Shown here: positions 3,951 through 18,255 of the stretch, one piece after another
Layout: every line of letters starts with the position of its first letter
Position numbering within the stretch: the first letter of the stretch is position 1
Source of the DNA: a phage
NCBI GenBank assembly: GCA_026686805.1
Contig: GCA_026686805.1_3949.1
Reading direction: 5' to 3' (one strand)
DNA: 52,601 bases
Translations under genes and position numbers: made by a program
Notes under the pieces: model-generated
What the model saw: only the letters and a program-made list of their open reading frames with translations
What the model was told of the DNA's origin: nothing
The model's database searches: none

Positions 3951-4362
3951 AAGCTCTCCGAATAACTCTATTAAACATCTCTAAAGTCAGCTTTCCAGAT
4001 TCTAAATGTGGCATAACAAGCTTTAAAGCTTTTTCAACATCATGCACAATATCAATTATACCTTCTTCATAGGCTTCTACGAGGATATCTTTTACACTGA
4101 TATAGCCTTCATTGATAATGATTTGCATATCAAAATCTTCTGATTGCTTGTTTAACTTACCTCTCCAATACCCATCAGCATTAAAAGATATCACTTCACA
4201 CTCTTTAAAATCCATATCATCTGCATGGAATGGAGTAATTATTGTGCATTGGATTGGGTACTCTACACCAGTGGTGTCAACATCAAAGACCTTCACAGAA
4301 GTAAGTGGTTTCTTTGTTTTAGAGCAGTAAACTGTCAATCTTTTACCAATAAGCTCTTTCAT
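3940..4362 (-). CDS. hypothetical protein (140 aa)
   Basis: ORF from track. Confidence 0.5.
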   Translation of the reverse strand: MKELIGKRLTVYCSKTKKPLTSVKVFDVDTTGVEYPIQCTIITPFHADDMDFKECEVISFNADGYWRGKLNKQSEDFDMQIIINEGYISVKDILVEAYEEGIIDIVHDVEKALKLVMPHLESGKLTLEMFNRVIRRAYEN

Positions 4363-4715: not shown

Positions 4716-5219
4716 CTATAATTGTAGGTTGCATTCTTTACTTACCTCTTCAAGTTTAACTTCAGAGTCCTTAAGTCGTTTCTTATGAACTCTGAATCTT
4801 AGTAGTGAGATTATGATACCAGCTAAAGGAACAGCATACAAGTACCAAACATCATATATCTTTGCAGTAATCTGTGTAATAGTCAAGTCTTGAGCTATGT
4901 AGCTGATTGCTGATACGGCTAGTAATGTTGCTAAGAAGAAAACCAGTATCATAGCAATATTCAGACAACCTCTGGCATGGTATTCATGCTTAATGCACTT
5001 ATTCTTCTCTTCAACAACACTGTTGTAGTCATTTGTAAAGTCTCTGTAGAAAGCTTTCAAGTATTCTTGAGTGTAGCCTTCAAAGCAACCTGTACCATAC
5101 CAATAATCACCACCAAAATGCGCTATGATACCGGTATCCCCATTTGGTTTGGTTACTCTCAAAGAGGTGTGATGACGAGTATCTTGATAGTCTATTTTGT
5201 ATCTTTCTTCATAAATCAT
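4716..5219 (-). CDS. hypothetical membrane protein (167 aa)
   Basis: ORF from track; long hydrophobic stretch (IAMILVFFLATLLAVSAISYIAQ...AVPLAGIIISLL). Confidence 0.5.
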   Translation of the reverse strand: MIYEERYKIDYQDTRHHTSLRVTKPNGDTGIIAHFGGDYWYGTGCFEGYTQEYLKAFYRDFTNDYNSVVEEKNKCIKHEYHARGCLNIAMILVFFLATLLAVSAISYIAQDLTITQITAKIYDVWYLYAVPLAGIIISLLRFRVHKKRLKDSEVKLEEVSKECNLQL

Positions 5220-5566
5220 TTTCCAATCCCTCTCAATCGTTTATTCCACTCAAGGTCAACAAGTCTTTGCAGGACTTTCCCTCTAGGTGTTACACCTTTT
5301 AAATCTGCATCGTAGCAACGGTAAAAGTCACCTTCAGCGTGTTTACCATAGCATTTTCTGATATTCTGACTCCTACGATATTGTTCTAATAGAGACAGCT
5401 TGTAGTAATCTTCAACTGTAGTTAGTTTTTTCATTCTTTCACCGTAGTGTTTCTCTAGAAACAAAAAGGGAACTACCTCTCGATAGCTCCCATCATAATC
5501 AGTGTTGTATACTCGGTCAAGAGTATTTTTTAGGCAGTAATGCGCTACGTTTGTTACTCTCTTCAC
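5216..5566 (-). CDS. hypothetical protein (start uncertain)
   Basis: ORF from track; overlaps upstream ORF, internal Met possible. Confidence 0.4.
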   Translation of the reverse strand: MKRVTNVAHYCLKNTLDRVYNTDYDGSYREVVPFLFLEKHYGERMKKLTTVEDYYKLSLLEQYRRSQNIRKCYGKHAEGDFYRCYDADLKGVTPRGKVLQRLVDLEWNKRLRGIGK

Positions 5567-6098
5567 TCAATAGTGCGATAAATTCGTCGCCTTTACCTTT
5601 CCACGGGCTGAATGAAGGGATATGCTCACGAATAGCCTCAATAACCGTCTTAAGTGCTGTATTTTTCATCCACCAATCAGAATCTGCTGATGCCACTACG
5701 TAGTATCCACCTTCATCAGTCAGAATTGGCTCTGAGATACATGGAGAAATCAAAGTTGTGACGATTGAACCATTGTTCATGTAGTATGTACGCTTAATAA
5801 CCTTTTCAAGAAGCTTGTGAAGGTCACCGAACAGTGTTACAAGTTCTTTGTGGTCAATGTCTTTTTCGAGGCTTGCTCGATACTTCAATAGTGCAGCATC
5901 AACCTCTCTGTCATTGAATTTGAAGTACTGGACTTCATCAACAAGGCAAACACTGATATTGTTGACATTCATAGTCAACTTACAGACTTTTGCAGGAGAA
6001 TTGATACTTGGTTGAAAAAGTGCAACACAACCTTCAATGTTCCCAAAATGTTGGACTAGTGTTACTTGTGGGGTAATATTCTGTTGCTCTTCGGACAT
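5517..6098 (-). CDS. hypothetical protein (193 aa)
   Basis: ORF from track. Confidence 0.5.
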   Translation of the reverse strand: MSEEQQNITPQVTLVQHFGNIEGCVALFQPSINSPAKVCKLTMNVNNISVCLVDEVQYFKFNDREVDAALLKYRASLEKDIDHKELVTLFGDLHKLLEKVIKRTYYMNNGSIVTTLISPCISEPILTDEGGYYVVASADSDWWMKNTALKTVIEAIREHIPSFSPWKGKGDEFIALLSEESNKRSALLPKKYS

Positions 6099-10995: not shown

Positions 10996-12411
10996 ATGAG
11001 CGAATTATTTAAACATGCGCACCTTCATGCAGGTCGAACTGAAAATGGTGCTGTAAACCATACTTCATCAATGTCTGCTCTTGTAGACTTTTACAAAGCT
11101 GCTGGTTCAAGCCGTAGCAACGTAGAAATCTTACCAGACCTGTTCTACAAAGCTTTGCGTGAGGATGTTGATGTTGTAGTTCGTATTTTGCTTCATATGC
11201 GAGATGTACGAGAAGGTATGGGTGAGCGTAAAGCCTTCAGAACTGTTTTACTTCAAGCGATTGAAGACAAAGTTTTAGAGCCTACGCAGGTTCTTCGCAT
11301 TATGGATAAGATTGCAGAACTTGGTCGTTTTGATGACTTCAAAATCTTCGTAGGTACTCGTTTCGAGACAGATGCCTTCAAACATCTAGAAGCAGCATTA
11401 CTAGACCCTGCAACAGCAGGTTTGGCGGCTAAGTGGTTACCACGAGTCAAACCACGTCATAAGCAGTTTGTAAAACGTTTCTGCAAGTTTGCCAACTTGA
11501 GTGAGAAAGAGTACCGCACACTGTTGTCTGCACTATCTGATACAGTTGAGCAAAAAATCTCTGCTAATGAGTTTGGTAAGATTGACTACAGTAAGATTCC
11601 TTCACTTGCTGCTGCACGTTACCAAAAACTGTTTAACCGCAAAGATGGAGAACGCTACAAAGCTTACATCGAGTCCTTATCAAAGGGTGAGGCTAAGATT
11701 AATGCTGGTGCTGTTTACCCATACGATGTAATTAAATCTGTTAAGCATGGTAATGCAGATGTTGCTAATGAGCAGTGGAAAGCACTACCAAACTGGATGG
11801 CAGAGGGTGAAAACATCTTGTGTATGTCTGATGTTTCAAGCTCAATGTCTTGGGTGAATTTTGGTTCAATTACTGCTCTTGATATTGGTGTTTCACTTGC
11901 ATTGTATGTAGCAGAACGTAATACAGGTTGCTTTAAGAATGAGTTGATGGTTTATTCAACAAACCCTCACTTCATCGAACTGAGTGGTGATTTACGAAAC
12001 CGTCATCGTCAGGTGATGCGACACGTTGAATATGGCTCAACTAACTTACAAGCAGCTTTTGACCGTATTCTTGAAACAGGTAAAAGAAACAACTTGACTC
12101 AGAAAGATATGCCAAGTAAGCTTATCATCTTCTCCGATATGGAGTTCAATCAGGTTGATGGAGCTAACGGTCGTACAAACTTTGAAGCAATTCGTAGTAA
12201 GTACAAAAAAGCTGGATACGAAATGCCTCAACTGGTATTCTGGTACTTAGCAAACCGTAATGGTACTTGCGAAGTGTCTGTTAAGGATAACGGTGTAGCA
12301 ATGGTATCTGGTTTTTCTCCAGCTACTTTAAAAGCTCTGCTTGGTGGTGAGAAGTTTGACCCAATCAGTGTAATGCTCAAAGCAGTAATGATTGACCGTT
12401 ATATCTGGTAA
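10996..12411 (+). CDS. von Willebrand factor A (vWA) domain protein with MIDAS motif, N-terminal helical domain
   Basis: DxSxS MIDAS-like motif (MSDVSSSMS) followed by hydrophobic strand ...LIIFSDMEFNQ; 471 aa; RBS present. Confidence 0.55.
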   Translation: MSELFKHAHLHAGRTENGAVNHTSSMSALVDFYKAAGSSRSNVEILPDLFYKALREDVDVVVRILLHMRDVREGMGERKAFRTVLLQAIEDKVLEPTQVLRIMDKIAELGRFDDFKIFVGTRFETDAFKHLEAALLDPATAGLAAKWLPRVKPRHKQFVKRFCKFANLSEKEYRTLLSALSDTVEQKISANEFGKIDYSKIPSLAAARYQKLFNRKDGERYKAYIESLSKGEAKINAGAVYPYDVIKSVKHGNADVANEQWKALPNWMAEGENILCMSDVSSSMSWVNFGSITALDIGVSLALYVAERNTGCFKNELMVYSTNPHFIELSGDLRNRHRQVMRHVEYGSTNLQAAFDRILETGKRNNLTQKDMPSKLIIFSDMEFNQVDGANGRTNFEAIRSKYKKAGYEMPQLVFWYLANRNGTCEVSVKDNGVAMVSGFSPATLKALLGGEKFDPISVMLKAVMIDRYIW

Positions 12412-12420
12412 AAAGTTTTA

Positions 12421-12457
12421 AAAAGGGTATTGACAATGTGTTTGATACCCTTTAATA
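12421..12457 (+). promoter_or_regulatory. sigma70-like promoter TTGACA-17-TAATAT embedded in a perfect 9-bp inverted repeat, upstream of the tRNA array
   Basis: -35 ttgaca 12429-12434, 17-nt spacer, -10 taatat 12452-12457; inverted repeat aaagggtat(12421-12429)/atacccttt(12444-12452). Confidence 0.45.
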
Positions 12458-12576
12458 TGTTCTACATAGAAACGAAACGAGAGCTTTTCTAAGATACTGA
12501 AAAATATTTTAAAAAAGTTCTTGACAACCACTAAAAAATAATGTTAAAGTGGTTACATAGAGTTTGAAAAGTTTAT

Positions 12577-12653
12577 CTCTGTTTAGCTCAGCTTGGTAGA
12601 GCGTTCCGTTTGGGGCGGTAAGGCCGGAGGTTCAAGTCCTCCAACAGAGACCA
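12577..12653 (+). tRNA. tRNA-Pro (anticodon TGG)
   Basis: hand-folded cloverleaf: acceptor ctctgtt/aacagag, D-arm gctcagcttggtagagc, anticodon loop ttTGGgg, T-loop ttcaagt, CCA encoded. Confidence 0.65.
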
Positions 12654-12660
12654 AATTAAT

Positions 12661-12738
12661 GTTCCAGTAGACAAAATGGTAAAGTCACCACTCTTTCAAA
12701 GTGGATATCTGAGGGTTCAAATCCCTTCTGGAACGCCA
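12661..12738 (+). tRNA. tRNA-Glu (anticodon TTC)
   Basis: acceptor gttccag/ctggaac, anticodon stem ccact/agtgg, loop ctTTCaa, T-loop ttcaaat, CCA encoded. Confidence 0.75.
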
Positions 12739-12745
12739 GTTTTGA

Positions 12746-12817
12746 CAGAAGACCAATTACAGCAAACTTAATCTACTCATCTGACACGAAATCGGACAAA
12801 GAAGATATTTGGTCTGG
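12746..12817 (+). repeat. bipartite spacer element copy a (CAGAAGACC-nnWTWCAGCAA ... GGTCTGG)
   Basis: seen directly; 5' block 12746-12765, 3' block 12811-12817; agacc/ggtct can pair. Confidence 0.5.
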
Positions 12818-12828
12818 TCATTGAGAAT

Positions 12829-12905
12829 TGCGGGTATAGAGAAAGGGCGTCTCACATGTCTCATTAGCATGGTATCGGCAGGTTCGACTCCTGCACCCGC
12901 CTCCA
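12829..12905 (+). tRNA. tRNA with CAT anticodon (Met or Ile-lysidine type)
   Basis: anticodon stem catgt/gcatg, loop ctCATta, T-arm gcagg-ttcgact-cctgc, CCA encoded; acceptor has a mismatch at one end so boundaries +/-1. Confidence 0.6.
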
Positions 12906-12911
12906 ATTTTG

Positions 12912-12971
12912 CAGAAGACCGTATTCAGCAACAAAATACTTTTTGCGGATAAAAGAAAAAACACGGTCTGG
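12912..12971 (+). repeat. bipartite spacer element copy b
   Basis: gcagaagaccgtattcagcaa ... acacggtctgg. Confidence 0.5.
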
Positions 12972-12982
12972 CAATGTATTAA

Positions 12983-13059
12983 GGTTAGGAAGCACATAAG
13001 GTATGTGCGGTCGCCTGTTAAGCGAATGGCACAGGGTTCGAATCCCTGACTAACCGCCA
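12983..13059 (+). tRNA. tRNA-Asn (anticodon GTT)
   Basis: acceptor ggttagg/actaacc, D-stem gcac/gtgc, anticodon loop ctGTTaa, T-arm caggg-ttcgaat-ccctg, CCA encoded. Confidence 0.7.
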
Positions 13060-13067
13060 AATTAAAT

Positions 13068-13155
13068 GTGTCGTTATCCCGTAGATGGTAGCGGTGGGGA
13101 CTGTAAATCCCTTGTCATTGAGACTCGGTAGGTTCGACTCCTACACGGCACACCA
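13068..13155 (+). tRNA. tRNA-Tyr (anticodon GTA), long variable arm
   Basis: acceptor gtgtcgt/acggcac, anticodon stem gggga/tccct, loop ctGTAaa, long variable arm, T-arm gtagg-ttcgact-cctac, CCA. Confidence 0.7.
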
Positions 13156-13160
13156 ATAAA

Positions 13161-13237
13161 GGCTATGTAGTTTAACTGGAGAAAATACTCCCCTGTCACG
13201 GGAGATGATGTGAGTTCAAGTCTCATCGTAGCCGCCA
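13161..13237 (+). tRNA. tRNA-Asp (anticodon GTC)
   Basis: acceptor ggctatg/cgtagcc, anticodon stem ctccc/gggag, loop ctGTCac, T-loop ttcaagt, CCA. Confidence 0.75.
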
Positions 13238-13298
13238 ATTTTGAGAGGGCTATTTAGCCCCTCCCTTAAAGAGTTCTTACGAGTATTCTTTAAAGGAG

Positions 13299-13372
13299 CA
13301 GAAGACCAAATACAGCAAGAATGTATGAAATTTCAAGCCAATTTAATTTTGAAAATTTAAAACTTGGTCTGG
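13299..13372 (+). repeat. bipartite spacer element copy c
   Basis: agcagaagaccaaatacagcaa ... aacttggtctgg. Confidence 0.5.
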
Positions 13373-13385
13373 CTCAACAAATTTA

Positions 13386-13517
13386 CAGAAGACCGTTTAC
13401 AGCAAAACTTAAACAATCTATTTCTCCGGTAAAGAAAAGGCGAAGGTTCGATTCCTTCACTCGGCAGATGTCGAGTTGGTGTAATGGTAGCACTTAAGAT
13501 GATAAACAACGGTCTGG
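13386..13517 (+). repeat. bipartite spacer element copy d, enclosing a tRNA-like relic
   Basis: acagaagaccgtttacagcaa ... aacaacggtctgg; interior holds T-arm/acceptor-like and acceptor/D-arm-like segments. Confidence 0.5.
13442..13495 (+). other. tRNA-like relic in reversed half order (T-arm + 3' acceptor strand immediately followed by complementary 5' acceptor strand + D-arm)
   Basis: gaagg-ttcgatt-ccttc + actcggc then gtcgagt + ggtgtaatggtagcac; no complete cloverleaf can be drawn. Confidence 0.35.
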
Positions 13518-13666
13518 TAATTATCTTTGTAGATAAGTTATTAAGCTTACCTGTGAGTATGCGACCACAAAGGGTGAAAGGGTAAATTCTAGATTTAAAC
13601 CCAACAAGGCACATCGCTACAGACCTTAAGCAAGTCTGGGTAGCTTATCTACAAAGGTAATTTAAT

Positions 13667-13742
13667 GGAAGTGTAGCAGAATGGTGATGCGGCAGACTTT
13701 TAATCTGACAGGCGATGGGTTCGAATCCCTCCACTTCTACCA
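13667..13742 (+). tRNA. tRNA-Lys (anticodon TTT)
   Basis: acceptor ggaagtg/cacttct, anticodon loop ctTTTaa, T-loop ttcgaat, CCA; T-stem weak in my fold. Confidence 0.6.
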
Positions 13743-13746
13743 AAAT

Positions 13747-13823
13747 GGTTCAGTCGCAGATAAGGTAATGCAAGGGTCTCATAAGCCCTATGAATGTGGG
13801 TTCAATTCCCATCTGAACCTCCA
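13747..13823 (+). tRNA. tRNA with CAT anticodon (Met, initiator or Ile-lysidine type)
   Basis: acceptor ggttcag/ctgaacc, anticodon stem agggt/gccct, loop ctCATaa, T-loop ttcaatt, CCA. Confidence 0.7.
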
Positions 13824-13831
13824 ATTTATCG

Positions 13832-14326
13832 GTGATACTTATGATTTGTGCTAACAAAGATTGCGGAAATGAAGCCGTTAAAGGTGGAAAATTTTGCTCA
13901 CGCTCTTGTTCTGCAAAAGTGAACAACAAGAAACACCCAAAGAGAAGTCAGGAAGGCTCTTGCCATTCATGCGGAAAGGTAACGCCAAAAGCAAGAAAAT
14001 ACTGTGACGAATGTATTTCAGGTGGAGTCATGAAAAAACATAAGACCCATCATGAAAAAAGCAAAGCTAAATCACTGCACGTTAAAAAGTCTCGTGATAG
14101 ACTGAAGAAGGCTTTAGTTGATTACAAGGGTGGTTGTTGTTCAATTTGTGGTTACAATAGGTGCATAAAGGCTCTAGAGTTTCACCACTTAGACCCTAAC
14201 ACAAAAGACTTCACAGTAGGTCAAAAACACTACTCACTGGCTACAATGCAGTCTGAAGTTGATAAGTGTGTCTTGCTTTGTGCAAATTGCCATAGAGAAG
14301 TACACGAAGGGGTAACAATGCTGTGA
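13832..14326 (+). CDS. HNH homing endonuclease (Cys-rich N-terminus, C-terminal HNH motif)
   Basis: C-terminal ...CSICGYNRC...LEFHHLDPNTKDF...CVLLCANCHREVHEG = HNH signature; embedded in tRNA array; stop codon overlaps start of tRNA-Ile. Confidence 0.75.
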   Translation: MILMICANKDCGNEAVKGGKFCSRSCSAKVNNKKHPKRSQEGSCHSCGKVTPKARKYCDECISGGVMKKHKTHHEKSKAKSLHVKKSRDRLKKALVDYKGGCCSICGYNRCIKALEFHHLDPNTKDFTVGQKHYSLATMQSEVDKCVLLCANCHREVHEGVTML

Positions 14327-14395
14327 AAGCACATATGGATGTGCATTCGGCTGATAACCGAAAGGTAGAAGGTTCGAATCCTTCTCACAGTACCA
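14320..14395 (+). tRNA. tRNA-Ile (anticodon GAT)
   Basis: acceptor gctgtga/tcacagt, D-stem gcac/gtgc, anticodon stem ttcgg/ccgaa, loop ctGATaa, T-arm gaagg-ttcgaat-ccttc, CCA. Confidence 0.75.
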
Positions 14396-14410
14396 ATTTC
14401 AATAAAGTTG

Positions 14411-14439
14411 TTGACATTGAGATGCGACTACTTTATAGT
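14411..14439 (+). promoter_or_regulatory. sigma70-like promoter TTGACA-17-TATAGT inside the tRNA array
   Basis: -35 ttgaca 14411-14416, 17-nt spacer, -10 tatagt 14434-14439. Confidence 0.5.
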
Positions 14440-14445
14440 AACCTT

Positions 14446-14610
14446 AGTTTTCGTTGCGTAGCGTCTATTTTGCAAATTTAAAATAAATGCAAACGACAAT
14501 GTTTTTCTGGCAGTAGCTTGATAGGCTAAACACCAGTGAGGTCTTCCAATCCCTCATCAAAGAATTTGGCGTACTAGCCCACGGTATGATTAATAAGGTG
14601 GGCATCTTTA
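14446..14610 (+). ncRNA. candidate small structured RNA downstream of promoter (no coding potential, no tRNA fold)
   Basis: hairpins tttgca/tgcaaa and gcccac(14577-14582)/gtgggc(14598-14603) followed by atcttt; purely structural inference. Confidence 0.2.
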
Positions 14611-14643
14611 AGGGCTTTCTAAGAGAGTCTTTAAAGATAATTA

Positions 14644-14725
14644 CGGGGCGTATCTCAGCGGTCTTCTAAACCGCCGTTAACCGAGTAAGTGGAGTATGCG
14701 GGTTCGAGTCCTGCCGCCTCGACCA
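14644..14725 (+). tRNA. atypical tRNA-like gene, possible tRNA-Arg (anticodon TCT); D-arm not placeable, 23-nt region between anticodon and T arms
   Basis: acceptor cggggcg/cgcctcg, perfect anticodon arm gcggt-ctTCTaa-accgc, T-arm gcggg-ttcgagt-cctgc, CCA; geometry non-canonical. Confidence 0.35.
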
Positions 14726-14868
14726 ATTTAGTTAGCAGATTACTTAGACGACCTTATCGGGTCTCCGTGTAAGGAGGTGGTCTGTATCTCATGTTTTCCA
14801 GAACATGTAAATAATCTGAGAAGGGGCTTTACAGTGTTGAGATAATACGGTAAGCTTCGAATTATAGT

Positions 14869-14951
14869 ATGGGACGATGTTAAGACTCTAAGGCATGAGC
14901 AACGGCTTCCAACACCGTTTCAAAGGGGTTCAACTCCTCCGTCCCATGCCA
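14869..14951 (+). tRNA. atypical tRNA-like gene, possible tRNA-Trp (anticodon CCA); 7 extra nt between acceptor and D-arm
   Basis: acceptor atgggac/gtcccat (7/7), anticodon arm acggc-ttCCAac-accgt, T-loop ttcaact, CCA. Confidence 0.35.
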
Positions 14952-14964
14952 AAGTCTTATTAGG

Positions 14965-15052
14965 GGTAGGTAGCGGCTAATGGTAGCCAAACTGTCTTGA
15001 AAACAGTTGCCACTGTAGAGATACGGTGAGGGTTCGACTCCTTTACTTACCG
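14965..15052 (+). tRNA. tRNA-Ser (anticodon TGA), long variable arm
   Basis: acceptor ggtaggt/acttacc, perfect anticodon stem actgt/acagt, loop ctTGAaa, 20-nt variable arm, T-arm gaggg-ttcgact-ccttt; CCA not encoded. Confidence 0.7.
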
Positions 15053-15310
15053 CCTAATAAGATTTTAAAGCCAAGCTTCATTCGGATGTTGCTTTGGTAT
15101 CCCTCGTGTATTGTCGTACACACTGATAAAACACCTAGTAGGTGTCACGGAGAAGAGATAATATCAAGCTCTCCAAAGGTTCTAGTCACCGGATTAAACA
15201 AGACTATGCAAAGACCTTTTTAGGTCTTTTTAGAGGGCTTCTAAGGTTATTACGGCTTGTTGTGGAACCTTGTTGCTTAGGTTCTTAGAAGTTCTCTAAA
15301 AAGATTTAAT

Positions 15311-15388
15311 GGGAGATTGACGGTAATTGGTAAACCTATCTCGCTTAGAACGAGATGTTTGAGGGTTCGAATCCCTTGTCTCCTACCA
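15311..15388 (+). tRNA. tRNA with TAG anticodon (Leu by anticodon), short variable loop
   Basis: acceptor gggagat/gtctcct, perfect anticodon stem tctcg/cgaga, loop ctTAGaa, T-loop ttcgaat, CCA; class I architecture unusual for Leu. Confidence 0.55.
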
Positions 15389-15395
15389 AATTAAT

Positions 15396-15471
15396 GCAGG
15401 TGTAGCAAAATGGTTATGCGGCTGACTCTTAATCAGTAAGACGATGGGTTCAATTCCCTCCACCTGTACCA
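15396..15471 (+). tRNA. tRNA-Lys (anticodon CTT)
   Basis: acceptor gcaggtg/cacctgt, anticodon stem gctga/tcagt, loop ctCTTaa, T-loop ttcaatt, CCA. Confidence 0.65.
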
Positions 15472-15476
15472 AAAAT

Positions 15477-15552
15477 GGGGTCATAGTTTATATGGTTAAA
15501 ATTCGAGTTTTGCAAACTTGGGAACTGAGTTCAATTCTCAGTGACTCCACCA
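15477..15552 (+). tRNA. tRNA-Ala (anticodon TGC)
   Basis: acceptor ggggtca/tgactcc, anticodon stem cgagt/acttg, loop ttTGCaa, T-loop ttcaatt, CCA. Confidence 0.65.
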
Positions 15553-15558
15553 ATTAGT

Positions 15559-15633
15559 GCATCCATAGTTTAAACGGGAAAATTACAGTCTTCCAAACTG
15601 AGGTTGAGGGTTCGATTCCCTCTGGATGCTCCA
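15559..15633 (+). tRNA. tRNA-Gly (anticodon TCC)
   Basis: acceptor gcatcca/tggatgc, anticodon loop ctTCCaa, T-arm gaggg-ttcgatt-ccctc, CCA. Confidence 0.7.
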
Positions 15634-15640
15634 AATTAAT

Positions 15641-15716
15641 GCTCCTATCGTATAATTGGCTATTACGGTTGCCTTGTAAGCAACTTATCAGGGTTCGAAT
15701 CCTTGTGGGAGCACCA
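15641..15716 (+). tRNA. tRNA-Thr (anticodon TGT)
   Basis: acceptor gctccta/tgggagc, perfect anticodon stem gttgc/gcaac, loop ctTGTaa, T-loop ttcgaat, CCA. Confidence 0.75.
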
Positions 15717-15718
15717 AT

Positions 15719-15811
15719 TCAGAGGTCAAGTGAAAGACCGCTGGTGTCAACTGAAGACCGTAACAAATTCCACGGAGTTGAGTTAGCGGCACAACTTCAG
15801 ACCTCTTTCAC
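15719..15811 (+). other. structured spacer element (inverted repeat agaggtc ... gacctct, internal gaagaccgtaacaaattc block)
   Basis: seen directly; related to the CAGAAGACC-containing spacer elements; function unknown. Confidence 0.3.
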
Positions 15812-15886
15812 ACTCGCTTAGTTTATATGGTAAAACATCACCCTTACAAGATGAAGAAAAAGGTTCAAGTCCTTTAGTGAGTACCA
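15812..15886 (+). tRNA. tRNA-Val (anticodon TAC)
   Basis: acceptor actcgct/agtgagt, anticodon stem tcacc/gatga (one mismatch), loop ctTACaa, T-arm aaagg-ttcaagt-ccttt, CCA. Confidence 0.65.
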
Positions 15887-15887
15887 T

Positions 15888-15965
15888 GTTCCAGTATCCC
15901 AATTGGCAGAGGATGCAAGCTCAAACCTTGTATTAGTGACGGTTCGAATCCGTCTTGGAACACCA
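15888..15965 (+). tRNA. tRNA with CAA anticodon (Leu by anticodon), short variable loop
   Basis: acceptor gttccag/ttggaac, anticodon stem gcaag/cttgt, loop ctCAAac, T-arm gacgg-ttcgaat-ccgtc, CCA. Confidence 0.55.
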
Positions 15966-15981
15966 ATTTTAGGAGAACACT

Positions 15982-16089
15982 ATGAGCAATAAGTCAATTG
16001 CAAAAAAGTTTAGAGCGTCATACCTAAACAGACGTAAAAACAAAGTTTGTGAAAAACTGTATGGTGTTCTCGTAGGTAAGCAGGATTAG
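15982..16089 (+). CDS. possible small ORF (35 aa, basic) overlapping the 5' end of tRNA-Arg
   Basis: AGGAG RBS 6 nt upstream of ATG; below the track's 60-aa cutoff; overlap with tRNA makes it doubtful. Confidence 0.2.
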   Translation: MSNKSIAKKFRASYLNRRKNKVCEKLYGVLVGKQD

Positions 16090-16155
16090 TTCAAATGGAT
16101 AGAGCAACAGTCTACGAAGCTGTTAATAGGGGTTCGAATCCCTTATCCTGCACCA
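16080..16155 (+). tRNA. tRNA-Arg (anticodon ACG)
   Basis: acceptor gcaggat/atcctgc, D-arm gttcaaatggatagagc, anticodon stem acagt/gctgt, loop ctACGaa, T-loop ttcgaat, CCA. Confidence 0.75.
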
Positions 16156-16174
16156 ATTTAAAGAGGCTATTTAG

Positions 16175-16732
16175 ATGAGATATTTGAAGTATGCTTCATG
16201 GATTTTCTTAGCTTTGTTAGAGCCATTTGCAGCAATCTTAGCAGTTATCTTAGCACCTTTTGTAGTTCCATTCTACAGTGAGAAGAAAGGACACTTACCT
16301 TTCGGGTTCAGATGGATGGAGACATATGACAACCCAATTGATGGTGATGAAGGTCACGTTAAAAGATGGGCTAATATCAGATGGATTGGTAAACTAGGTG
16401 TCTACATGCAAAGAGTCGGATGGCTCTGGAGAAACAAAGCTTATAACTTCTCTTACCATGTATTAGGAAGAGATGTAAAAGATGTTACTAAGTGGAAAGG
16501 TAATATCAACGTAAGTTCTGACCCTGAAGATAATCAGACAGGTTATCTACTAATGTGGAACAGTAATGCTTGGGGATTATTCGCTTTTATCCCATCAATT
16601 AAAATCTTTGGTAAACAATTTTACTGGAGAATTTATATTGGATGGAAACTAAAAAGTGTTGTCCCAGAAGAAAGAGCATTCTCAAGGGAAAGAGTTATGT
16701 TGGCATTCTTTATTCATCCACTGAGAAAGTAA
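16175..16732 (+). CDS. hypothetical protein with hydrophobic N-terminus (185 aa), embedded in tRNA array
   Basis: ORF from track; N-terminal hydrophobic segment WIFLALLEPFAAILAVILAPFVVPF. Confidence 0.5.
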   Translation: MRYLKYASWIFLALLEPFAAILAVILAPFVVPFYSEKKGHLPFGFRWMETYDNPIDGDEGHVKRWANIRWIGKLGVYMQRVGWLWRNKAYNFSYHVLGRDVKDVTKWKGNINVSSDPEDNQTGYLLMWNSNAWGLFAFIPSIKIFGKQFYWRIYIGWKLKSVVPEERAFSRERVMLAFFIHPLRK

Positions 16733-16740
16733 AGATTTAA

Positions 16741-16816
16741 AGGGGATTAGTTTACAAGGTTAAAACCTCGGTCTTTGAAATCGAAGAAGTTGGTTCAATT
16801 CCAACATCCCCCGCCA
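16741..16816 (+). tRNA. tRNA-Gln (anticodon TTG)
   Basis: acceptor aggggat/atccccc (1-72 mismatch), anticodon stem tcggt/atcga, loop ctTTGaa, T-arm gttgg-ttcaatt-ccaac, CCA. Confidence 0.65.
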
Positions 16817-16818
16817 AT

Positions 16819-16897
16819 GCTCCATTACTCCAATTGGCAGAGAGGCCAGACTTAAAATCTGTGTTATGTATCGGTTCGAATCCGATATGGAGTACCA
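16819..16897 (+). tRNA. tRNA with TAA anticodon (Leu by anticodon), short variable loop
   Basis: acceptor gctccat/atggagt, anticodon stem caga/tctg, loop ctTAAaa, T-arm atcgg-ttcgaat-ccgat, CCA. Confidence 0.5.
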
Positions 16898-16902
16898 AAT
16901 TT

Positions 16903-16978
16903 AGCGGCATAGCATAACTGGCAATGCAGCAGTCTCTGAAGCTGTCTTATTAAGGTTCAAATCCTTATGCCGCTGCCA
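16903..16978 (+). tRNA. tRNA-Gln (anticodon CTG)
   Basis: acceptor agcggca/tgccgct, D-stem gcat/atgc, anticodon loop ctCTGaa (stem with two G-U pairs), T-arm taagg-ttcaaat-cctta, CCA. Confidence 0.55.
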
Positions 16979-17009
16979 CTTCTAAGGATTCTTACGAGAG
17001 TCCTTAAAT

Positions 17010-17085
17010 GTGGCCTTATCATAAACGGTAATGACCCATGCTGTGAACATGGTCTATACGGGTTCAAATCCCGTAGGTCACCCCA
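17010..17085 (+). tRNA. tRNA-His (anticodon GTG)
   Basis: acceptor gtggcct/aggtcac, perfect anticodon stem ccatg/catgg, loop ctGTGaa, T-arm acggg-ttcaaat-cccgt, CCA. Confidence 0.7.
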
Positions 17086-17091
17086 ATTTAT

Positions 17092-17167
17092 AGTCCAAGT
17101 AGCTTATATGGTTAAAGCGCGTGTCTGAAAAACATGAGAAGAGTGTTCAAATCCCACTGGACTACCA
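17092..17167 (+). tRNA. tRNA-Phe (anticodon GAA)
   Basis: acceptor (t)agtcca/tggact(a), anticodon stem cgtgt/acatg, loop ctGAAaa, T-loop ttcaaat; 5' boundary +/-1. Confidence 0.6.
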
Positions 17168-17183
17168 ATTTCAAAGGTGCTTA

Positions 17184-17918
17184 ATGAAAGAGATGACAGA
17201 ACAAGGTAAGGAGATTTTCAATCTCTTAAAAACCGGTAAAGGGTTTTCTAACCCCCTTATTACTGGTGCAGCAGTTCTCGGTGGAACCGTAGCTGCCTCT
17301 ACATCACTTGTAAGCTCTATTAGCTCTGTATCAGACCCTACAGTAAAGGATAAGCTTGTTGCTGCTGGACTTACAACAGTTCTGCTTAACAGCTTTACCA
17401 CGAGTCTGACAAGCACTACATCAACTACCAAAACACTAACAGATTACGGTCAAAAATCCATTGATGAGTTTTCATCACGTATGCAGGTAGCAAAAGGTTA
17501 TTCTAATGTTATGGGTGCAGCAGGTGAACAAGTTGGCTGTACACCATTTAGTGGTATTATGGGTGTTGCTACAGAGTATGGTCAAAAAGCTATTGATACG
17601 ATTAACAGTGCACTAGATAGTGTTAATGGTGTGTTAAGTGACTTACAAGATGCTATTGACAAAGGTCTTGATACTATTTCTGATTTAGCTGAGCAAGCTG
17701 TTAGTAAGATTAATGAAGGTATTTCAAAAATTACAGCTTATGCAGATGAAGTTGTGCAGATGATTGAAGAAGAAGCTGCTCTTATTGCAGAGTACCTTAA
17801 AACGAATATCAATGGGTTCTTAGCAGGTATCTTACCAGACTGGTTTGATGATGCTTGTAAAACTGGTGTAATTGACACTATTGCAACACCAGAAATGAAG
17901 AACGCATTACAGAAATAA
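17184..17918 (+). CDS. hypothetical Ser/Thr-rich protein (244 aa), embedded in tRNA array
   Basis: track ORF 17121..17918 overlaps tRNA-Phe; ATG at 17184 has RBS aaaggtg and clears the tRNA. Confidence 0.5.
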   Translation: MKEMTEQGKEIFNLLKTGKGFSNPLITGAAVLGGTVAASTSLVSSISSVSDPTVKDKLVAAGLTTVLLNSFTTSLTSTTSTTKTLTDYGQKSIDEFSSRMQVAKGYSNVMGAAGEQVGCTPFSGIMGVATEYGQKAIDTINSALDSVNGVLSDLQDAIDKGLDTISDLAEQAVSKINEGISKITAYADEVVQMIEEEAALIAEYLKTNINGFLAGILPDWFDDACKTGVIDTIATPEMKNALQK

Positions 17919-17920
17919 AT

Positions 17921-18013
17921 GGAAGATTAACCCTAAAAGGTAAGGGAGCAGTTTGCTAAACTGCCAGTAGCTGAGAAATCGGTGTACCAGTTCAAGTCTG
18001 GTATCTTCCTCCA
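17921..18013 (+). tRNA. tRNA-Ser (anticodon GCT), long variable arm
   Basis: acceptor ggaagat/atcttcc, perfect anticodon stem gcagt/actgc, loop ttGCTaa, ~21-nt variable arm, T-arm accag-ttcaagt-ctggt, CCA. Confidence 0.75.
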
Positions 18014-18017
18014 ATTT

Positions 18018-18093
18018 GAATCCGTGACAGAAATGGCTATGTGCCTGTCTGCAAAACAGGTTTATAAGGGTTCGAGTCCCTTCGGATTCTCCA
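18018..18093 (+). tRNA. tRNA-Cys (anticodon GCA)
   Basis: acceptor gaatccg/cggattc, perfect anticodon stem cctgt/acagg, loop ctGCAaa, T-arm aaggg-ttcgagt-ccctt, CCA. Confidence 0.75.
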
Positions 18094-18255
18094 ATTTATT
18101 TTACTCTCTCTCAATTAAAATAATAATAATGCCCTGCTATAAGTATTCTTCCTTTCGCTACCGAAGAGTATTTTTAGACAGGGCTTTTTTACAGAGTTAT
18201 ACTTTATAAGAAGCCTTATACAGTATGTCTCTGACGTACATTGTGGTTTCTCCTT

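What the first reader, a model, noticed from the sequence alone, without database searches (positions are those of the whole stretch)
12577..18093. Dense array of about 27 tRNA genes apparently covering all 20 amino acids
Hand folding gives Pro, Glu, Met/Ile(CAT) x2, Asn, Tyr, Asp, Lys x2, Ile, Ser x2, Ala, Gly, Thr, Val, Arg(ACG), Gln x2, His, Phe, Cys, three tRNAs with Leu anticodons, and atypical candidates for Arg(TCT) and Trp(CCA). A near-complete set in 5.5 kb suggests the phage buffers its own translation against host codon bias, tRNA depletion or anticodon-nuclease defences.
Basis: partly seen in the sequence, partly recalled or inferred. Interest (0 to 1): 0.6.

Follow-up and report, generated by a model that had tools for sequence, protein, structure and literature searches.

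The report
Phage tRNA array hiding other RNAs
The 27-gene tRNA array is real but is the already-known cluster of Felix O1-type phages; what looks unreported is that its "gaps" hold other structured RNAs, above all a widespread phage RNA that encodes a tmRNA-style degradation tag but has no tRNA-like end.

Summary
**Observation: confirmed.** ARAGORN tRNAs, all on the + strand at 12577-18093. They cover 19 amino acids. Both are conserved RNAs with compensatory base changes, which gives 27 genes and 20 amino acids.

**The array is known.** The window is a Felixounavirus, 98% identical to phage garuso and 96% to Felix O1. The cluster is annotated there and was published in 2010.

**Interpretation: partly supported.** Anticodon choice fits phage codon use: AGA is about 10-fold commoner than in E. 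coli. Literature reports Felixounaviruses growing on a host that lacks the tRNA-Ser genes serT and serU. Evasion of anticodon nucleases was not tested.

**tRNAs fill only 38% of the interval. The rest also holds:**
- A promoter-driven RNA of about 180 nt (14444-14625) with a tmRNA-like tag frame, ANDNVFLAVA-stop-stop, and two covariation-supported pseudoknots. No tRNA-like domain was found. Relatives occur in 651 phage records, at least 120 viral contigs and 329 E. coli genomes. They are unannotated, and I found no description in the papers I could search.
- Four stem-enclosed modules. One is a circularly permuted tRNA mimic like a YrlA Y RNA. They lie next to a gene whose predicted fold is Ro60.

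How the tag RNA works is unresolved.

The parts
10996..12411 (+). Ro60-like protein gene (TROVE-like ring plus vWA domain) just upstream of the array
   Evidence: Pfam gives DUF2828 + DUF7788. The AlphaFold model has pLDDT 89. The 11 best Foldseek PDB hits are all Ro60/TROVE at E 1e-8 to 4e-6: 9kop, 2i91, 9l5y Thermus phage Ro60, 9nfa, 9nf8, 9nep, 1yvp, 2nvo. The gene is annotated 'RNA-binding protein' in Felix O1 and Sf14.
12430..12550 (+). Two sigma70-like promoters at the head of the array (TTGACA-17-TAATAT and TTGACA-18-TAAAGT)
   Evidence: Consensus scan, 10 of 12 matches each. Inferred function only.
12577..12653 (+). tRNA-Pro(TGG)
   Evidence: ARAGORN; Rfam 57.7 bits
12661..12738 (+). 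tRNA-Glu(TTC)
   Evidence: 60.4 bits
12743..12821 (+). Stem-enclosed RNA module 1 (GAC[AGA]AGACC...UNCAGCAA...GGUCU[G]GUC)
   Evidence: Repeat family D8/D15. Conserved in Felix O1, garuso, Sf14 and SUSP1.
12829..12905 (+). tRNA with CAT anticodon #1 (1-72 mismatch, U37; Met, initiator or Ile2 identity unresolved)
   Evidence: ARAGORN only. Missed by Rfam. Cove score 28.9 in the Felix O1 paper.
12909..12975 (+). Stem-enclosed RNA module 2
   Evidence: Weak Rfam hit to Dictyostelium Class I RNA, 24 bits, through the shared stem plus UUCAGCAA motif.
12983..13059 (+). tRNA-Asn(GTT)
   Evidence: 48 bits
13068..13155 (+). tRNA-Tyr(GTA), class II
   Evidence: ARAGORN. Missed by the Rfam tRNA model at gathering score. 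Flagged 'pseudo' by tRNAscan in Felix O1.
13161..13237 (+). tRNA-Asp(GTC)
   Evidence: 60.6 bits
13296..13376 (+). Stem-enclosed RNA module 3
13383..13521 (+). Stem-enclosed module 4: circularly permuted tRNA mimic (anticodon-like hairpin, T arm, closed acceptor stem ACUCGGC-AGAU-GUCGAGU, D arm), the YrlA-type Y RNA architecture
   Evidence: Fold. Partial Rfam tRNA hit, model positions 8-71, 22.9 bits. 92% conserved across three genera, with a compensatory change in the acceptor-like stem. Lies 1 kb downstream of the Ro60-like gene on the same strand.
13667..13742 (+). tRNA-Lys(TTT)
   Evidence: 54.4 bits
13747..13823 (+). tRNA with CAT anticodon #2
   Evidence: (55.6 bits)
13832..14326 (+). 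HNH homing endonuclease ORF, overlapping the start of tRNA-Ile by 7 nt
   Evidence: ORF. Annotated HNH endonuclease in garuso and Felix O1. No Pfam hit at E<=0.001.
14320..14395 (+). tRNA-Ile(GAT)
   Evidence: 60 bits
14411..14439 (+). Promoter of the tag RNA: TTGACA-17-TATAGT
   Evidence: Best promoter match in the region, 11 of 12. Conserved in Andreotti, Sf14, SUSP1 and Hena2.
14444..14625 (+). tmRNA-like tag RNA with no tRNA-like domain. Conserved 5' UAGUUUUCG. Tag frame 14489-14518 (GCA AAC GAC AAT GTT TTT CTG GCA GTA GCT = ANDNVFLAVA), then stops TGA 14519-21 and TAG 14522-24 in a hairpin loop. Pseudoknot a: 14537-41/14552-56 and 14546-49/14566-69. Pseudoknot b: 14570-75/14583-88 and 14577-82/14598-603.
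   Evidence: Sequence. Weak Rfam tmRNA hits. A profile built without Felix-type rows hits 14444-14605 at E 1.7e-32, single copy. Covariation: 92.6% paired, 12 pairs changed on both sides, 0 of 500 shuffles reach the observed values. Coding constraint on the tag frame. No tmRNA or tRNA-like domain by ARAGORN.
14644..14725 (+). Atypical tRNA-like RNA with UCU (Arg AGA/AGG) anticodon loop: no canonical D arm, 23-nt region between anticodon and T arms, G3:U70, A73, CCA
   Evidence: Rfam tRNA 31.7 bits; not called by ARAGORN. Replaces the canonical tRNA-Arg(TCT) of Andreotti, Sf14 and SUSP1 at the same site. 83-90% identical copies occur in rV5-like, T5-like and jumbo phages, with compensatory changes.
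14869..14951 (+). Atypical tRNA-like RNA with CCA (Trp) anticodon loop: 8-bp acceptor stem, 4-bp T stem, 9-nt linker before a 3-bp D stem
   Evidence: Not called by ARAGORN or Rfam. Fold z = -2.0. Compensatory changes in the D, anticodon and T stems. SUSP1 has a 7/5 version with different stems and the same CCA loop.
14965..15054 (+). tRNA-Ser(TGA), class II; the only member without an encoded CCA
   Evidence: (33.2 bits)
15311..15388 (+). tRNA with Leu anticodon TAG, 78 nt, no long variable arm
   Evidence: (44.5 bits)
15396..15471 (+). tRNA-Lys(CTT)
   Evidence: 56.9 bits
15477..15552 (+). tRNA-Ala(TGC), G3:U70
   Evidence: (56.9 bits)
15559..15633 (+). tRNA-Gly(TCC)
   Evidence: 59.6 bits
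15641..15716 (+). tRNA-Thr(TGT)
   Evidence: 58.4 bits
15812..15886 (+). tRNA-Val(TAC)
   Evidence: 60 bits
15888..15965 (+). tRNA with Leu anticodon CAA, 78 nt, no long variable arm
   Evidence: (44 bits)
16080..16155 (+). tRNA-Arg(ACG)
   Evidence: 61.1 bits
16175..16732 (+). ORF, DUF7338 family
   Evidence: E 1e-61
16741..16816 (+). tRNA-Gln(TTG)
   Evidence: 56.6 bits
16819..16897 (+). tRNA with Leu anticodon TAA, 79 nt, no long variable arm
   Evidence: (47.5 bits)
16903..16978 (+). tRNA-Gln(CTG)
   Evidence: 60.3 bits
17010..17085 (+). tRNA-His(GTG), no encoded G-1
   Evidence: (53.3 bits)
17092..17167 (+). tRNA-Phe(GAA), weak T stem
   Evidence: (35.6 bits)
17184..17918 (+). ORF, DUF7217 family (putative membrane protein in relatives)
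   Evidence: E 1e-88
17921..18013 (+). tRNA-Ser(GCT), class II
   Evidence: 46.2 bits
18018..18093 (+). tRNA-Cys(GCA)
   Evidence: 56.4 bits
18256..18273 (+). Terminator-like hairpin plus T run downstream of the array

Best explanation
The interval is the tRNA gene cluster of a Felix O1-type phage (Felixounavirus). It lies between a Ro60-like gene and the terminase genes.

**tRNAs.** The cluster encodes 25 conventional tRNAs and two structurally unconventional ones, with UCU and CCA anticodons. Together these give one decoder for every amino acid. Isoacceptors are chosen to match the phage's A/T-rich codon use. Their most likely job is to keep phage translation running largely independently of the host tRNA pool. 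That the tRNA genes are real is shown here. The codon match is shown. In-vivo function is taken from literature on relatives. Charging of the two atypical RNAs is inferred.

**Non-tRNA RNAs.** The cluster is better described as an RNA tool-kit locus than as a pure tRNA array. Its non-tRNA space carries further structured RNAs, probably released from the same transcripts by tRNA-processing enzymes.
- **Tag RNA.** This is an RNA of about 180 nt with its own strong promoter. It keeps the messenger half of tmRNA: a resume-type GCA codon, a 10-codon ssrA-like degron frame, double stops in a hairpin and two pseudoknots. It has no alanine-accepting tRNA-like half. Selection at the codon level suggests the tag is translated, so its most likely role is as a template for tagging peptides during ribosome rescue. 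It would need a partner from the host, because no tRNA-like domain travels with it. This mechanism is inferred, not shown.
- **Y-RNA-like modules.** There are four stem-enclosed modules, one a permuted tRNA mimic. They are probably Y-RNA-like partners of the adjacent Ro60-like protein. This too is inferred.
For: **Identity and tRNAs**
- The interval is 98.4% identical to phage garuso and 96.1% to Felix O1, with the same annotated tRNAs. The cluster was published with 22 tRNAs.
- Two independent programs call the tRNAs.
- Phage codon use matches the anticodons carried.
- Felixounaviruses infect a host without serT/serU.

**Atypical tRNAs**
- Both show compensatory changes.
- Both have the array's CCA plus A/T-rich trailer.
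- The UCU RNA sits exactly where relatives have a canonical tRNA-Arg(UCU). AGA is the phage's main Arg codon, about 10x the host frequency.

**Tag RNA**
- There are 26 distinct DNA versions, all 10 sense codons plus a stop, with consensus A-N-[DE]-[DEN]-x-[FYVM]-L-[AM]-[AV]-A.
- The final Ala uses all four GCN codons, Leu uses CTG or TTG, and the stop is TAA, TGA or TAG.
- There are 258 synonymous codon differences in frame, against 38 and 139 in the other two frames.
- Four pseudoknot helices are 93-100% paired, with 10 pairs changed on both sides.
- It has the best promoter match in the region.
- It is present in 651 phage records of several families, at least 120 IMG/VR contigs and 329 of 5426 E. 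coli genomes.
- Between unrelated phages, the element itself is the only shared non-tRNA DNA in these loci, apart from one short 40-nt match.

**Ro60-like fold:**. **Modules conserved in three genera:**
Against: - No experiment here shows expression, processing or charging of any of these RNAs.
- The two atypical tRNAs lack normal D-arm geometry, so ArgRS or TrpRS recognition is uncertain. E. coli ArgRS uses A20 in the D loop (my knowledge).
- G3:U70 in the UCU RNA could even direct alanine charging, although the pair is not conserved in all homologs.
- For the tag RNA, trans-translation as currently understood requires a covalently or base-pair-linked tRNA-like domain and SmpB. None was found in cis.
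- No SmpB-like ORF was seen in the window, though the test was weak.
- No significant complementarity to E. coli ssrA was found.
- The profile of the element does not hit E. coli ssrA. Homology to tmRNA therefore rests on the tag region and on architecture.
- The Y-RNA reading rests on architecture and gene neighbourhood. The published Ro-binding motif GNCGAA(N)G is only approximately present (CAGAAG), and only the tRNA family reached Rfam E<=0.01 on module 4.
Confidence: 0.8

Rival explanations
1. The main selective value of the array is protection against host tRNA-targeting defences (anticodon nucleases, tRNA-cutting retrons, PARIS-type systems) or against phage-induced loss of host tRNAs, rather than codon matching. 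On this view the phage copies, including the two structurally odd ones, are nuclease-resistant replacements.
For: - The set is nearly complete. It even includes tRNAs for codons the phage uses no more often than the host does, such as GAA, TTC and CAC. Codon compensation alone does not need these.
- The odd UCU RNA is conserved at 83-90% identity in at least five unrelated phage groups, which suggests a selected special property.
- Retron Eco2, which cuts tRNAs, does not protect against most Felixounavirus species.
- The hypothesis is published for phage tRNAs in general (PMC10264068, listed).
Against: - Nothing here tests nuclease sensitivity.
- The Lys(UUU) anticodon loop reads CUUUUAA. I did not compare anticodon loops with the host's.
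- The strong codon match is enough to explain which isoacceptors were chosen.
Confidence: 0.35
2. The tag RNA is not a template. It is a decoy that binds host factors which recognise the messenger part of tmRNA (SmpB tail, ribosomal protein S1, RNase R, or a defence sensor). It would damp or redirect host ribosome rescue during infection.
For: - It lacks the tRNA-like domain needed to enter the ribosome.
- It moves alone between phages.
- A tRNA-like-domain-only tmRNA from phage DS6A is reported to inhibit host tmRNA (PMC4131195). Half-molecule inhibitors therefore have a precedent.
Against: A decoy needs no open frame. Yet all 26 variants keep exactly 10 sense codons, a stop and the degron-like residues, with an excess of synonymous changes in that frame only.
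Confidence: 0.25
3. The two atypical tRNA-like RNAs and the four modules are decaying tRNA pseudogenes and spacer debris, left by homing-endonuclease traffic in the cluster, and have no function.
For: - HNH endonuclease genes come and go inside the cluster: one here, three in Felix O1.
- Standard tRNA software rejects or barely accepts the atypical RNAs.
- tRNAscan flagged two Felix O1 tRNAs as pseudogenes.
Against: - Compensatory changes keep every helix paired.
- The UCU RNA is 83-90% identical across unrelated phage families.
- The modules are 92% conserved across three genera while neighbouring loops diverge.
- AGA demand is very high.
Confidence: 0.08

Closest known systems
tRNA gene cluster of Felix O1 and other Felixounavirus/Ounavirinae phages
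   Same: It has the same genes in the same order, 96-98% identical DNA and the same flanking genes: the 'RNA-binding protein' upstream and terminase downstream.
   Different: - Published annotations list 17-26 tRNAs and no other RNA genes.
- This subgroup carries the atypical UCU RNA where Andreotti, Sf14 and SUSP1 have a canonical tRNA-Arg(UCU).
- HNH endonuclease content differs.
tmRNA (SsrA), including two-piece (permuted) tmRNAs and phage tmRNAs of cluster C mycobacteriophages
   Same: - A resume codon GCA with no start codon or Shine-Dalgarno sequence.
- A 10-codon tag that begins AND and ends in a hydrophobic Ala-rich C-terminus, like E. coli ANDENYALAA.
- Tandem stops in a hairpin loop.
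- Pseudoknots after the tag.
- A location among tRNA genes.
   Different: - No acceptor stem, T arm or CCA belongs to it.
- It is only about 180 nt.
- It scores 15-24 bits against Rfam tmRNA models, whose gathering score is 47.
- ARAGORN does not call it.
- A profile of the family does not hit E. coli ssrA.
- Known phage tmRNAs are complete, or tRNA-like-domain-only in DS6A. This is the converse half.
Bacterial and phage YrlA-type Y RNAs with Ro60 (Rsr)
   Same: - They are encoded within about 1 kb of a Ro60-like gene on the same strand.
- A stem is formed by the 5' and 3' ends.
- Module 4 carries a tRNA mimic in the order T arm, closed acceptor stem, D arm, as described for YrlA (PMC4201824).
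   Different: - The protein is Ro60-like only by predicted fold (Pfam DUF2828; no sequence hit to solved Ro60 structures).
- The Ro-binding motif matches only approximately.
- Three of the four modules have no tRNA mimic.
- Only the tRNA family reached Rfam E<=0.01 on module 4.
- Binding is untested.
Non-canonical tRNAs (D-armless mitochondrial tRNAs; 8/4 and 9/3 'allo-tRNAs' - recalled from memory, not tested)
   Same: The acceptor and T helices add up to 12 bp (8+4) in the CCA RNA. The D arm is missing or displaced in the UCU RNA.
   Different: Allo-tRNAs have long variable arms and Ser/Leu-type identities. The RNAs here have Trp and Arg anticodons and occur in enterobacterial phages. The resemblance is a lead only.

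Membership tests
Canonical tRNA (25 genes) | Cloverleaf with a 7-nt anticodon loop and T-loop, recognised by tRNA-specific software | tested here: met
   ARAGORN of 25. The Rfam tRNA model reaches gathering score for 23 of them; Met(CAT) #1 and Tyr are found by ARAGORN only.
Canonical tRNA (the two atypical RNAs, 14644-14725 and 14869-14951) | Standard cloverleaf: 7/5 acceptor/T stems and a 4-bp D stem two nucleotides after the acceptor stem | tested here: not met
   The UCU RNA has no D arm at the normal place. The CCA RNA has an 8/4 geometry and a 9-nt linker. ARAGORN rejects both even at relaxed thresholds. Rfam gives 31.7 bits for the first and nothing for the second.
Functional tRNA-like RNA (the two atypical RNAs) | Helices maintained by compensatory substitutions; conserved anticodon loop; 3' CCA | tested here: met
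   97.6% and 99.2% of cells are paired. Six pairs each have changes on both sides. 0-2 of 500 shuffles reach the observed values, and slid controls are far lower. The CCA and trailer match the rest of the array.
Functional tRNA (any member) | Aminoacylation with the amino acid implied by the anticodon | not testable with these tools
   This needs acid-gel Northern blots, tRNA-seq or in-vitro charging.
Felixounavirus tRNA cluster | Collinear, highly similar DNA with the same flanking genes | tested here: met
tmRNA | tRNA-like domain: acceptor stem with G3:U70, T arm and 3' CCA formed by the ends of the RNA or by a second piece | tested here: not met
   ARAGORN makes no tmRNA call in the window. 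In 128 element-bearing stretches it makes one, a spurious call that borrows a tRNA-Met. The promoter places the 5' end at the conserved UAGUUUUCG. Apart from one 40-nt match, nothing but the element is shared between unrelated carriers.
tmRNA | Internal tag reading frame with a resume codon (usually GCA), no start signal, ending in stop codon(s) and encoding a C-terminal degron | tested here: met
   The frame reads ANDNVFLAVA, then TGA TAG. It is under coding constraint. The E. coli tag is ANDENYALAA.
tmRNA | Pseudoknots flanking the tag | tested here: inconclusive
   Two downstream pseudoknots are well supported. Upstream I see only a variable hairpin next to the resume codon. It is not a demonstrable PK1, and alignment is poor there.
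tmRNA | Match to curated covariance models at gathering score | tested here: not met
   RF00023 scores 15.4 bits and RF04321 (permuted) 23.6 bits, against a gathering score of 47.
tmRNA | Works with SmpB on stalled ribosomes | not testable with these tools
   No SmpB-like ORF was found in the window by tblastn with an E. coli SmpB sequence recalled from memory. This is a weak test.
Y RNA (YrlA type) | Encoded near a Ro60 ortholog on the same strand | tested here: met
   The Ro60-like fold of ORF 10996-12411 is shown. The modules lie 0.3-1.1 kb downstream on the + strand.
Y RNA (YrlA type) | Terminal stem carrying the Ro-binding motif GNCGAA(N)G (PMC4201824) | tested here: inconclusive
   All four modules have a conserved terminal stem with an internal loop, (G/A)C-AGA-AGACC / GGUCU-G-G(U/C). 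The motif reads CAGAAG, not CGAAG.
Y RNA (YrlA type) | tRNA-mimicking domain with T arm, closed acceptor-like stem and D arm | tested here: met
   Met by module 4 only.
Y RNA (YrlA type) | Binding to Ro60 | not testable with these tools
   This needs RNA immunoprecipitation.

The most novel reading that the evidence does not exclude
The RNA at 14444-14625 would represent an undescribed, horizontally mobile family of 'half tmRNAs', found in Ounavirinae, Ackermannviridae, N4-like phages, several siphoviruses, lambdoid prophages and phage-plasmids of Enterobacteriaceae. These RNAs carry only the messenger module of tmRNA. During infection the family would supply a phage-specified degradation tag (ANDxxxL[AM][AV]A) to the host's ribosome-rescue machinery. 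It could do so by teaming up in trans with a host or phage tRNA-like piece, or by a route not yet known. Phages would thereby reprogram trans-translation rather than merely carry tRNAs.
Probability: 0.3. Interest if true: 0.85.

Novelty: new variant of a known kind. Interest (0 to 1): 0.6.

Why it matters
**The tRNA array itself** adds little. It is a textbook feature of Felix O1-type phages, and the count of 27 only refines published counts of 17-26. It does so by rescuing two non-canonical tRNAs, one of which decodes the phage's most host-mismatched codon, AGA.

**The wider locus** matters more. It seems to collect several kinds of translation and RNA-surveillance RNAs next to a Ro60-like protein.

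**The tag RNA** has the highest potential value:
- If it is a working template, trans-translation can be driven by a messenger module physically separate from any tRNA-like domain. Many phages, including therapeutic Felix O1-like and Kuttervirus phages, would then manipulate protein tagging in their hosts.
- If it is a decoy, it is a new type of phage inhibitor of ribosome rescue.
- Either way it is a conserved, easily testable, currently unannotated RNA gene in hundreds of sequenced phages and in about 6% of complete E. coli genomes.
- Genome announcements for carriers explicitly report zero tmRNAs.

Tried and rejected
1. **Relaxed ARAGORN thresholds** (ps95/90/85) found no extra tRNAs.
2. 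**tRNA-like partner in cis.**
 - ARAGORN tmRNA mode on 128 element-bearing stretches gave only one call, a spurious one.
 - A search for tmRNA-type 5' ends (GGnnTGATTCTG) near the element found only Erwinia phage Hena2. Its 165-nt RNA did not fold or score convincingly. This is left as a lead.
3. **Atypical UCU RNA as the tmRNA's tRNA-like domain.** It has G3:U70, A73 and CCA. I rejected the idea because close relatives with the same tag RNA have an ordinary tRNA-Arg there, and G3:U70 is not conserved.
4. **Pairing of the tag RNA with host tmRNA.** Duplex energies against E. coli ssrA were no better than shuffles for 3 of 4 representatives. The only complementarity I noticed is 7 nt, UGAUUAA to UUAAUCA at ssrA position 236.
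5. **Alternative small ORF.** ATG-CAA-ACG... in the +1 frame was rejected, with 38 synonymous differences against 258 in the tag frame.
6. **Host ssrA picked up at prophage ends.** Rejected because the family profile does not hit E. coli ssrA, and the element lies between Q and holin in a lambdoid prophage.
7. **Sequence search of the Ro60-like ORF against solved structures** found nothing. Only the fold comparison worked.
8. **Rfam on prophage-type loci and on module 4** gave no family other than tRNA at E<=0.01.
9. **Supplementary phage list of the YrlA paper** was not available, so I cannot say whether Felix O1 was among its 22 phages.
10. **Literature searches** for phage tmRNA-like RNAs found only complete or tRNA-like-domain-only phage tmRNAs. 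The searchable library is incomplete, so absence is not proof of novelty.

Full report
**What the window is.** The interval 12500-18200 is 98.4% identical to Escherichia phage garuso and 96.1% identical to Salmonella phage Felix O1. 192 phage records cover at least 80% of it. In garuso and Felix O1 the same stretch is annotated as a run of tRNA genes, lying between an 'RNA-binding/vWFA protein' gene and the terminase genes. The Felix O1 genome paper reported 22 tRNAs there (PMC3185647). A comparative study reports 17-23 per Felixounavirus genome (PMC8300805). The array is therefore a known feature of a known phage genus.

**Checking the observation.**
Relaxed thresholds add none.
- Rfam's tRNA model finds 24 at gathering score. 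It misses Met(CAT) at 12829 and Tyr at 13068, and adds 14644-14722.
- The software-called set covers 19 amino acids. Trp is missing, and the only Arg decoder is ACG.
- 26 of the 27 RNAs discussed here end in an encoded CCA followed by an A/T-rich trailer. Ser(TGA) is the exception.
- tRNAs occupy 2120 of 5517 nt, or 38%.

**The two atypical candidates are real RNAs.**

*The UCU RNA, 14644-14725.*
- It has a 7-bp acceptor stem, a 5-bp stem with loop CUUCUAA, a T arm and ACCA.
- Only 7 nt lie where the D arm should be, and 23 nt lie between the anticodon and T arms.
- In Andreotti, Sf14 and SUSP1 the homologous site holds an ordinary tRNA-Arg(UCU).
- The odd version recurs at 83-90% identity, unannotated, in rV5-like, T5-like and jumbo phages.
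- Across five such phages, 97.6% of cells are paired. Six pairs have changes on both sides, four of them in the anticodon stem. Slid controls give 38-58%.

*The CCA RNA, 14869-14951.*
- It has an 8-bp acceptor stem, a 4-bp T stem, a 3-bp D stem after a 9-nt linker, and loop UUCCAAC.
- Six variants are 99.2% paired, with six pairs changed on both sides.
- SUSP1 has a 7/5 version with different stems and the same CCA loop.

Both are therefore conserved, structured, CCA-ended RNAs with tRNA-style anticodon loops, although they fail the test for a canonical cloverleaf. Whether they are charged with Arg and Trp was not testable.

**Does the anticodon set fit the phage?**
- I took 47 long ORFs of the window (38.5 kb) and compared codon use with an E. 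coli K-12 table that I supplied from memory.
- The largest mismatch is AGA, at 20.5 versus 2.1 per 1000. AGA is the phage's main Arg codon.
- Other codons whose cognate tRNA the phage carries are also enriched: ACA 3.8x, AAG 3.1x, TCA 2.9x, CTA 2.5x, GTA 2.0x, CCA 2.0x.
- The Felix O1 authors had remarked that an Arg(AGA) tRNA was expected but missing. The UCU RNA fills that gap, which argues that it is functional.
- Eight phages able to grow on the recoded host Syn61-delta-3 (no serT, serU) were Felixounaviruses, and such growth is attributed to phage seryl-tRNA(UGA) (PMC12269064).
- The 'own translation supply' reading is thus reasonably supported. The anticodon-nuclease part was not tested.

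**Oddities among the called tRNAs.**
- The three tRNAs with Leu anticodons are 78-79 nt and lack the long variable arm of bacterial tRNA-Leu. The Ser and Tyr tRNAs do have one.
- These Leu-anticodon tRNAs keep A73, a 3-bp D stem and a Leu-like D loop (CAAUUGGCAGA). From my knowledge of E. coli LeuRS, which does not need the long arm, leucine identity is plausible. It was not tested.
- Neither CAT tRNA shows the full bacterial initiator signature. #1 has a 1-72 mismatch and U37. #2 has three G-C pairs in the anticodon stem, out of the standard register. Assignment to Met, fMet or Ile2 stays open.

**A tmRNA-like tag RNA between tRNA-Ile and the UCU RNA.**

*Anatomy.*
- The best sigma70-type promoter match of the region, TTGACA-17-TATAGT at 14411-14439 with 11 of 12 matches, is followed by a conserved UAGUUUUCG.
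- At 14489-14524 the sequence reads GCA AAC GAC AAT GTT TTT CTG GCA GTA GCT TGA TAG, that is ANDNVFLAVA-stop-stop. The E. coli tmRNA tag is ANDENYALAA.
- Rfam gives only weak tmRNA hits: 15.4 and 23.6 bits against a gathering score of 47.

*Distribution.*
- blastn showed the core is shared, at about 72-81% identity and unannotated, with Ackermannviridae (Det7), Swiduovirus, N4-like Pollock and Klebsiella siphoviruses. In all, 651 phage records match.
- A pattern scan of IMG/VR reached its limit at 120 contigs.
- 329 of 5426 complete E. coli genomes carry it: 97 chromosomal places and 237 on plasmids, those listed being about 100-215 kb.
- In one lambdoid prophage it lies between the Q antiterminator and holin genes. 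In one of those plasmids it lies upstream of a tRNA cluster.

*The tag frame is under coding selection.*
- 26 distinct DNA versions all have 10 sense codons plus a stop, with consensus A-N-[DE]-[DEN]-x-[FYVM]-L-[AM]-[AV]-A.
- The last Ala uses all four GCN codons, Leu uses CTG or TTG, and the stop is TAA, TGA or TAG.
- Synonymous differences number 258 in this frame, against 38 and 139 in the other two.

*Structure.* Downstream of the tag, two H-type pseudoknots are supported on 48 non-redundant sequences. The four helices are 93-100% paired, the structure as a whole has 12 pairs with changes on both sides, 0 of 500 shuffles reach the observed values, and slid controls give 19-49%.

*A distinct, single-copy family.* A profile built without Felix-type sequences finds one copy in the window at 14444-14605 (E 1.7e-32). 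It does not hit E. coli ssrA.

**What the tag RNA lacks.**
- No tRNA-like domain was found. ARAGORN's tmRNA mode fails on the window and on 127 of 128 element-bearing stretches; the one call is spurious.
- The promoter places the 5' end at the start of the conserved core.
- Between unrelated carriers, the element is the only shared non-tRNA DNA apart from one 40-nt match. A lambdoid prophage and phage swi2 share it at 97.5% over 362 nt.
- It consistently sits next to tRNAs or tRNA-like hairpins. I read that as a way to have its ends cut by tRNA-processing enzymes, which is an inference.
- No SmpB-like ORF is in the window, by a weak test. No convincing complementarity to host tmRNA was found.
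- The tmRNA database papers list only complete phage tmRNAs and a tRNA-like-domain-only form in phage DS6A.
- Genome notes for a Kuttervirus that carries the element (hit H73) and for E. coli phages that include Felixounaviruses state that no tmRNA is present.
- I therefore regard it as a probable undescribed family: it works like the messenger half of tmRNA but fails the membership test for tmRNA. I rate 'translated tag template that needs a host partner' above 'decoy', because of the coding constraint. The mechanism is unresolved.

**A Ro60-like gene and Y-RNA-like modules.**
- The ORF just upstream of the array (10996-12411) matches only DUF2828 and DUF7788 in Pfam.
- With a 40-sequence alignment it gives a confident model, pLDDT 89. 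The 11 best PDB matches are all Ro60/TROVE proteins, including a Thermus phage Ro60.
- The tRNA-sized gaps at 12743-12821, 12909-12975, 13296-13376 and 13383-13521 each hold a module. The module is closed by a conserved stem with an internal loop, (G/A)C-AGA-AGACC ... GGUCU-G-G(U/C), followed by UNCAGCAA.
- All four modules are conserved in Felix O1, garuso, Sf14 (Mooglevirus) and SUSP1 (Suspvirus).
- The fourth encloses a circularly permuted tRNA mimic: an anticodon-like hairpin, a T arm, an acceptor stem closed by a loop and a D arm. One acceptor-stem pair shows a compensatory change.
- That is the architecture and gene neighbourhood described for YrlA Y RNAs (PMC4201824). The published Ro-binding motif is matched only approximately, and binding is untested.

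**Verdict.**
The array itself is already known.
- The added value lies in three points:
 - Two non-canonical but conserved tRNAs complete the set.
 - The 'spacers' are themselves RNA genes.
 - One of those RNA genes is a widespread tmRNA-like tag RNA without a tRNA-like domain, which appears undescribed and is directly testable.

Noticed in passing
L012, L013, L016, L025, L010 (IMG/VR prophage-type loci), e.g. L013:5100-5800 (- strand); lambdoid prophage L130:4650-5660: In lambdoid-type prophages the tag RNA sits inside arrays of repeated modules, ACAACAGGUAAGAGCAUUG - X - CAGUGCUCUUUCCGUUGUGG. X is a hairpin plus a T-arm-like element (GGCGACGUCGGAGAUCGCC...GAGGGUUCGAAUCCCUAC). The two flanks can pair around either X or the tag RNA. 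No Rfam family matches. The array lies between the Q antiterminator and holin genes.
   Followed up: partly
L009:2796-2964 (Erwinia phage Hena2): An unannotated stretch of about 165 nt lies directly upstream of Hena2's tag-RNA promoter. It starts GGGUGAUUCUG, like the 5' end of tmRNA, and ends with a T arm, AUCACUC, G and CCA. It could be a separate tRNA-like piece or a tRNA with a large insertion. Fold and Rfam results were inconclusive.
   Followed up: partly
window 12753-12765, 12921-12931, 13308-13318, 13395-13405: The motif U(U/A)(A/U)CAGCAA right after the 5' strand of a terminal stem is the same layout as the conserved CCUUACAGCAA motif of Dictyostelium Class I RNAs. Rfam RF01414 gives 24 bits on module 2 and 12.8 bits on module 4. 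This is probably coincidence, but it is striking.
   Followed up: no
window 13519-13662; 15220-15309; 14604-14638; 14745-14835: Further long hairpins lie in the remaining spacers: 22-nt arms 100 nt apart (91% complementary), 26-nt arms 38 nt apart, and a 17-bp hairpin right after the tag RNA. Two more hairpins read by eye lie between the UCU and CCA RNAs, in a stretch conserved in Andreotti, Sf14 and SUSP1. They may be additional small RNAs or processing and termination signals.
   Followed up: no
window 15311-15388, 15888-15965, 16819-16897: All three tRNAs with Leu anticodons lack the long variable arm that defines bacterial tRNA-Leu. Hena2's are also only 77-78 nt. Other phages seen here, Pollock and ESCO9, have normal 85-86-nt Leu tRNAs.
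   Followed up: partly
window 13832-14326 versus L002 (Felix O1) 3882-4274 and 5192-5605: HNH homing endonuclease genes are inserted at different places in the cluster in different relatives: one here, three in Felix O1, and one overlapping tRNA-Ile by 7 nt. A 114-nt spacer between Leu(CAA) and Arg(ACG) is absent in garuso. The cluster is a hot spot for endonuclease-driven turnover.
   Followed up: no
window 14590-14596 and L138 (E. coli ssrA) position 236 of the gene: The invariant loop UGAUUAAUAA of the tag RNA's second pseudoknot contains UGAUUAA, which is complementary to UUAAUCA in E. coli tmRNA. Seven nucleotides only, and not supported by the duplex statistics.
   Followed up: partly
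window 17092-17167 / 17121-17918: The longest ORF call for the DUF7217 gene (GTG at 17121) overlaps tRNA-Phe. The ATG at 17184, used in the Felix O1 annotation, avoids the overlap.
   Followed up: yes
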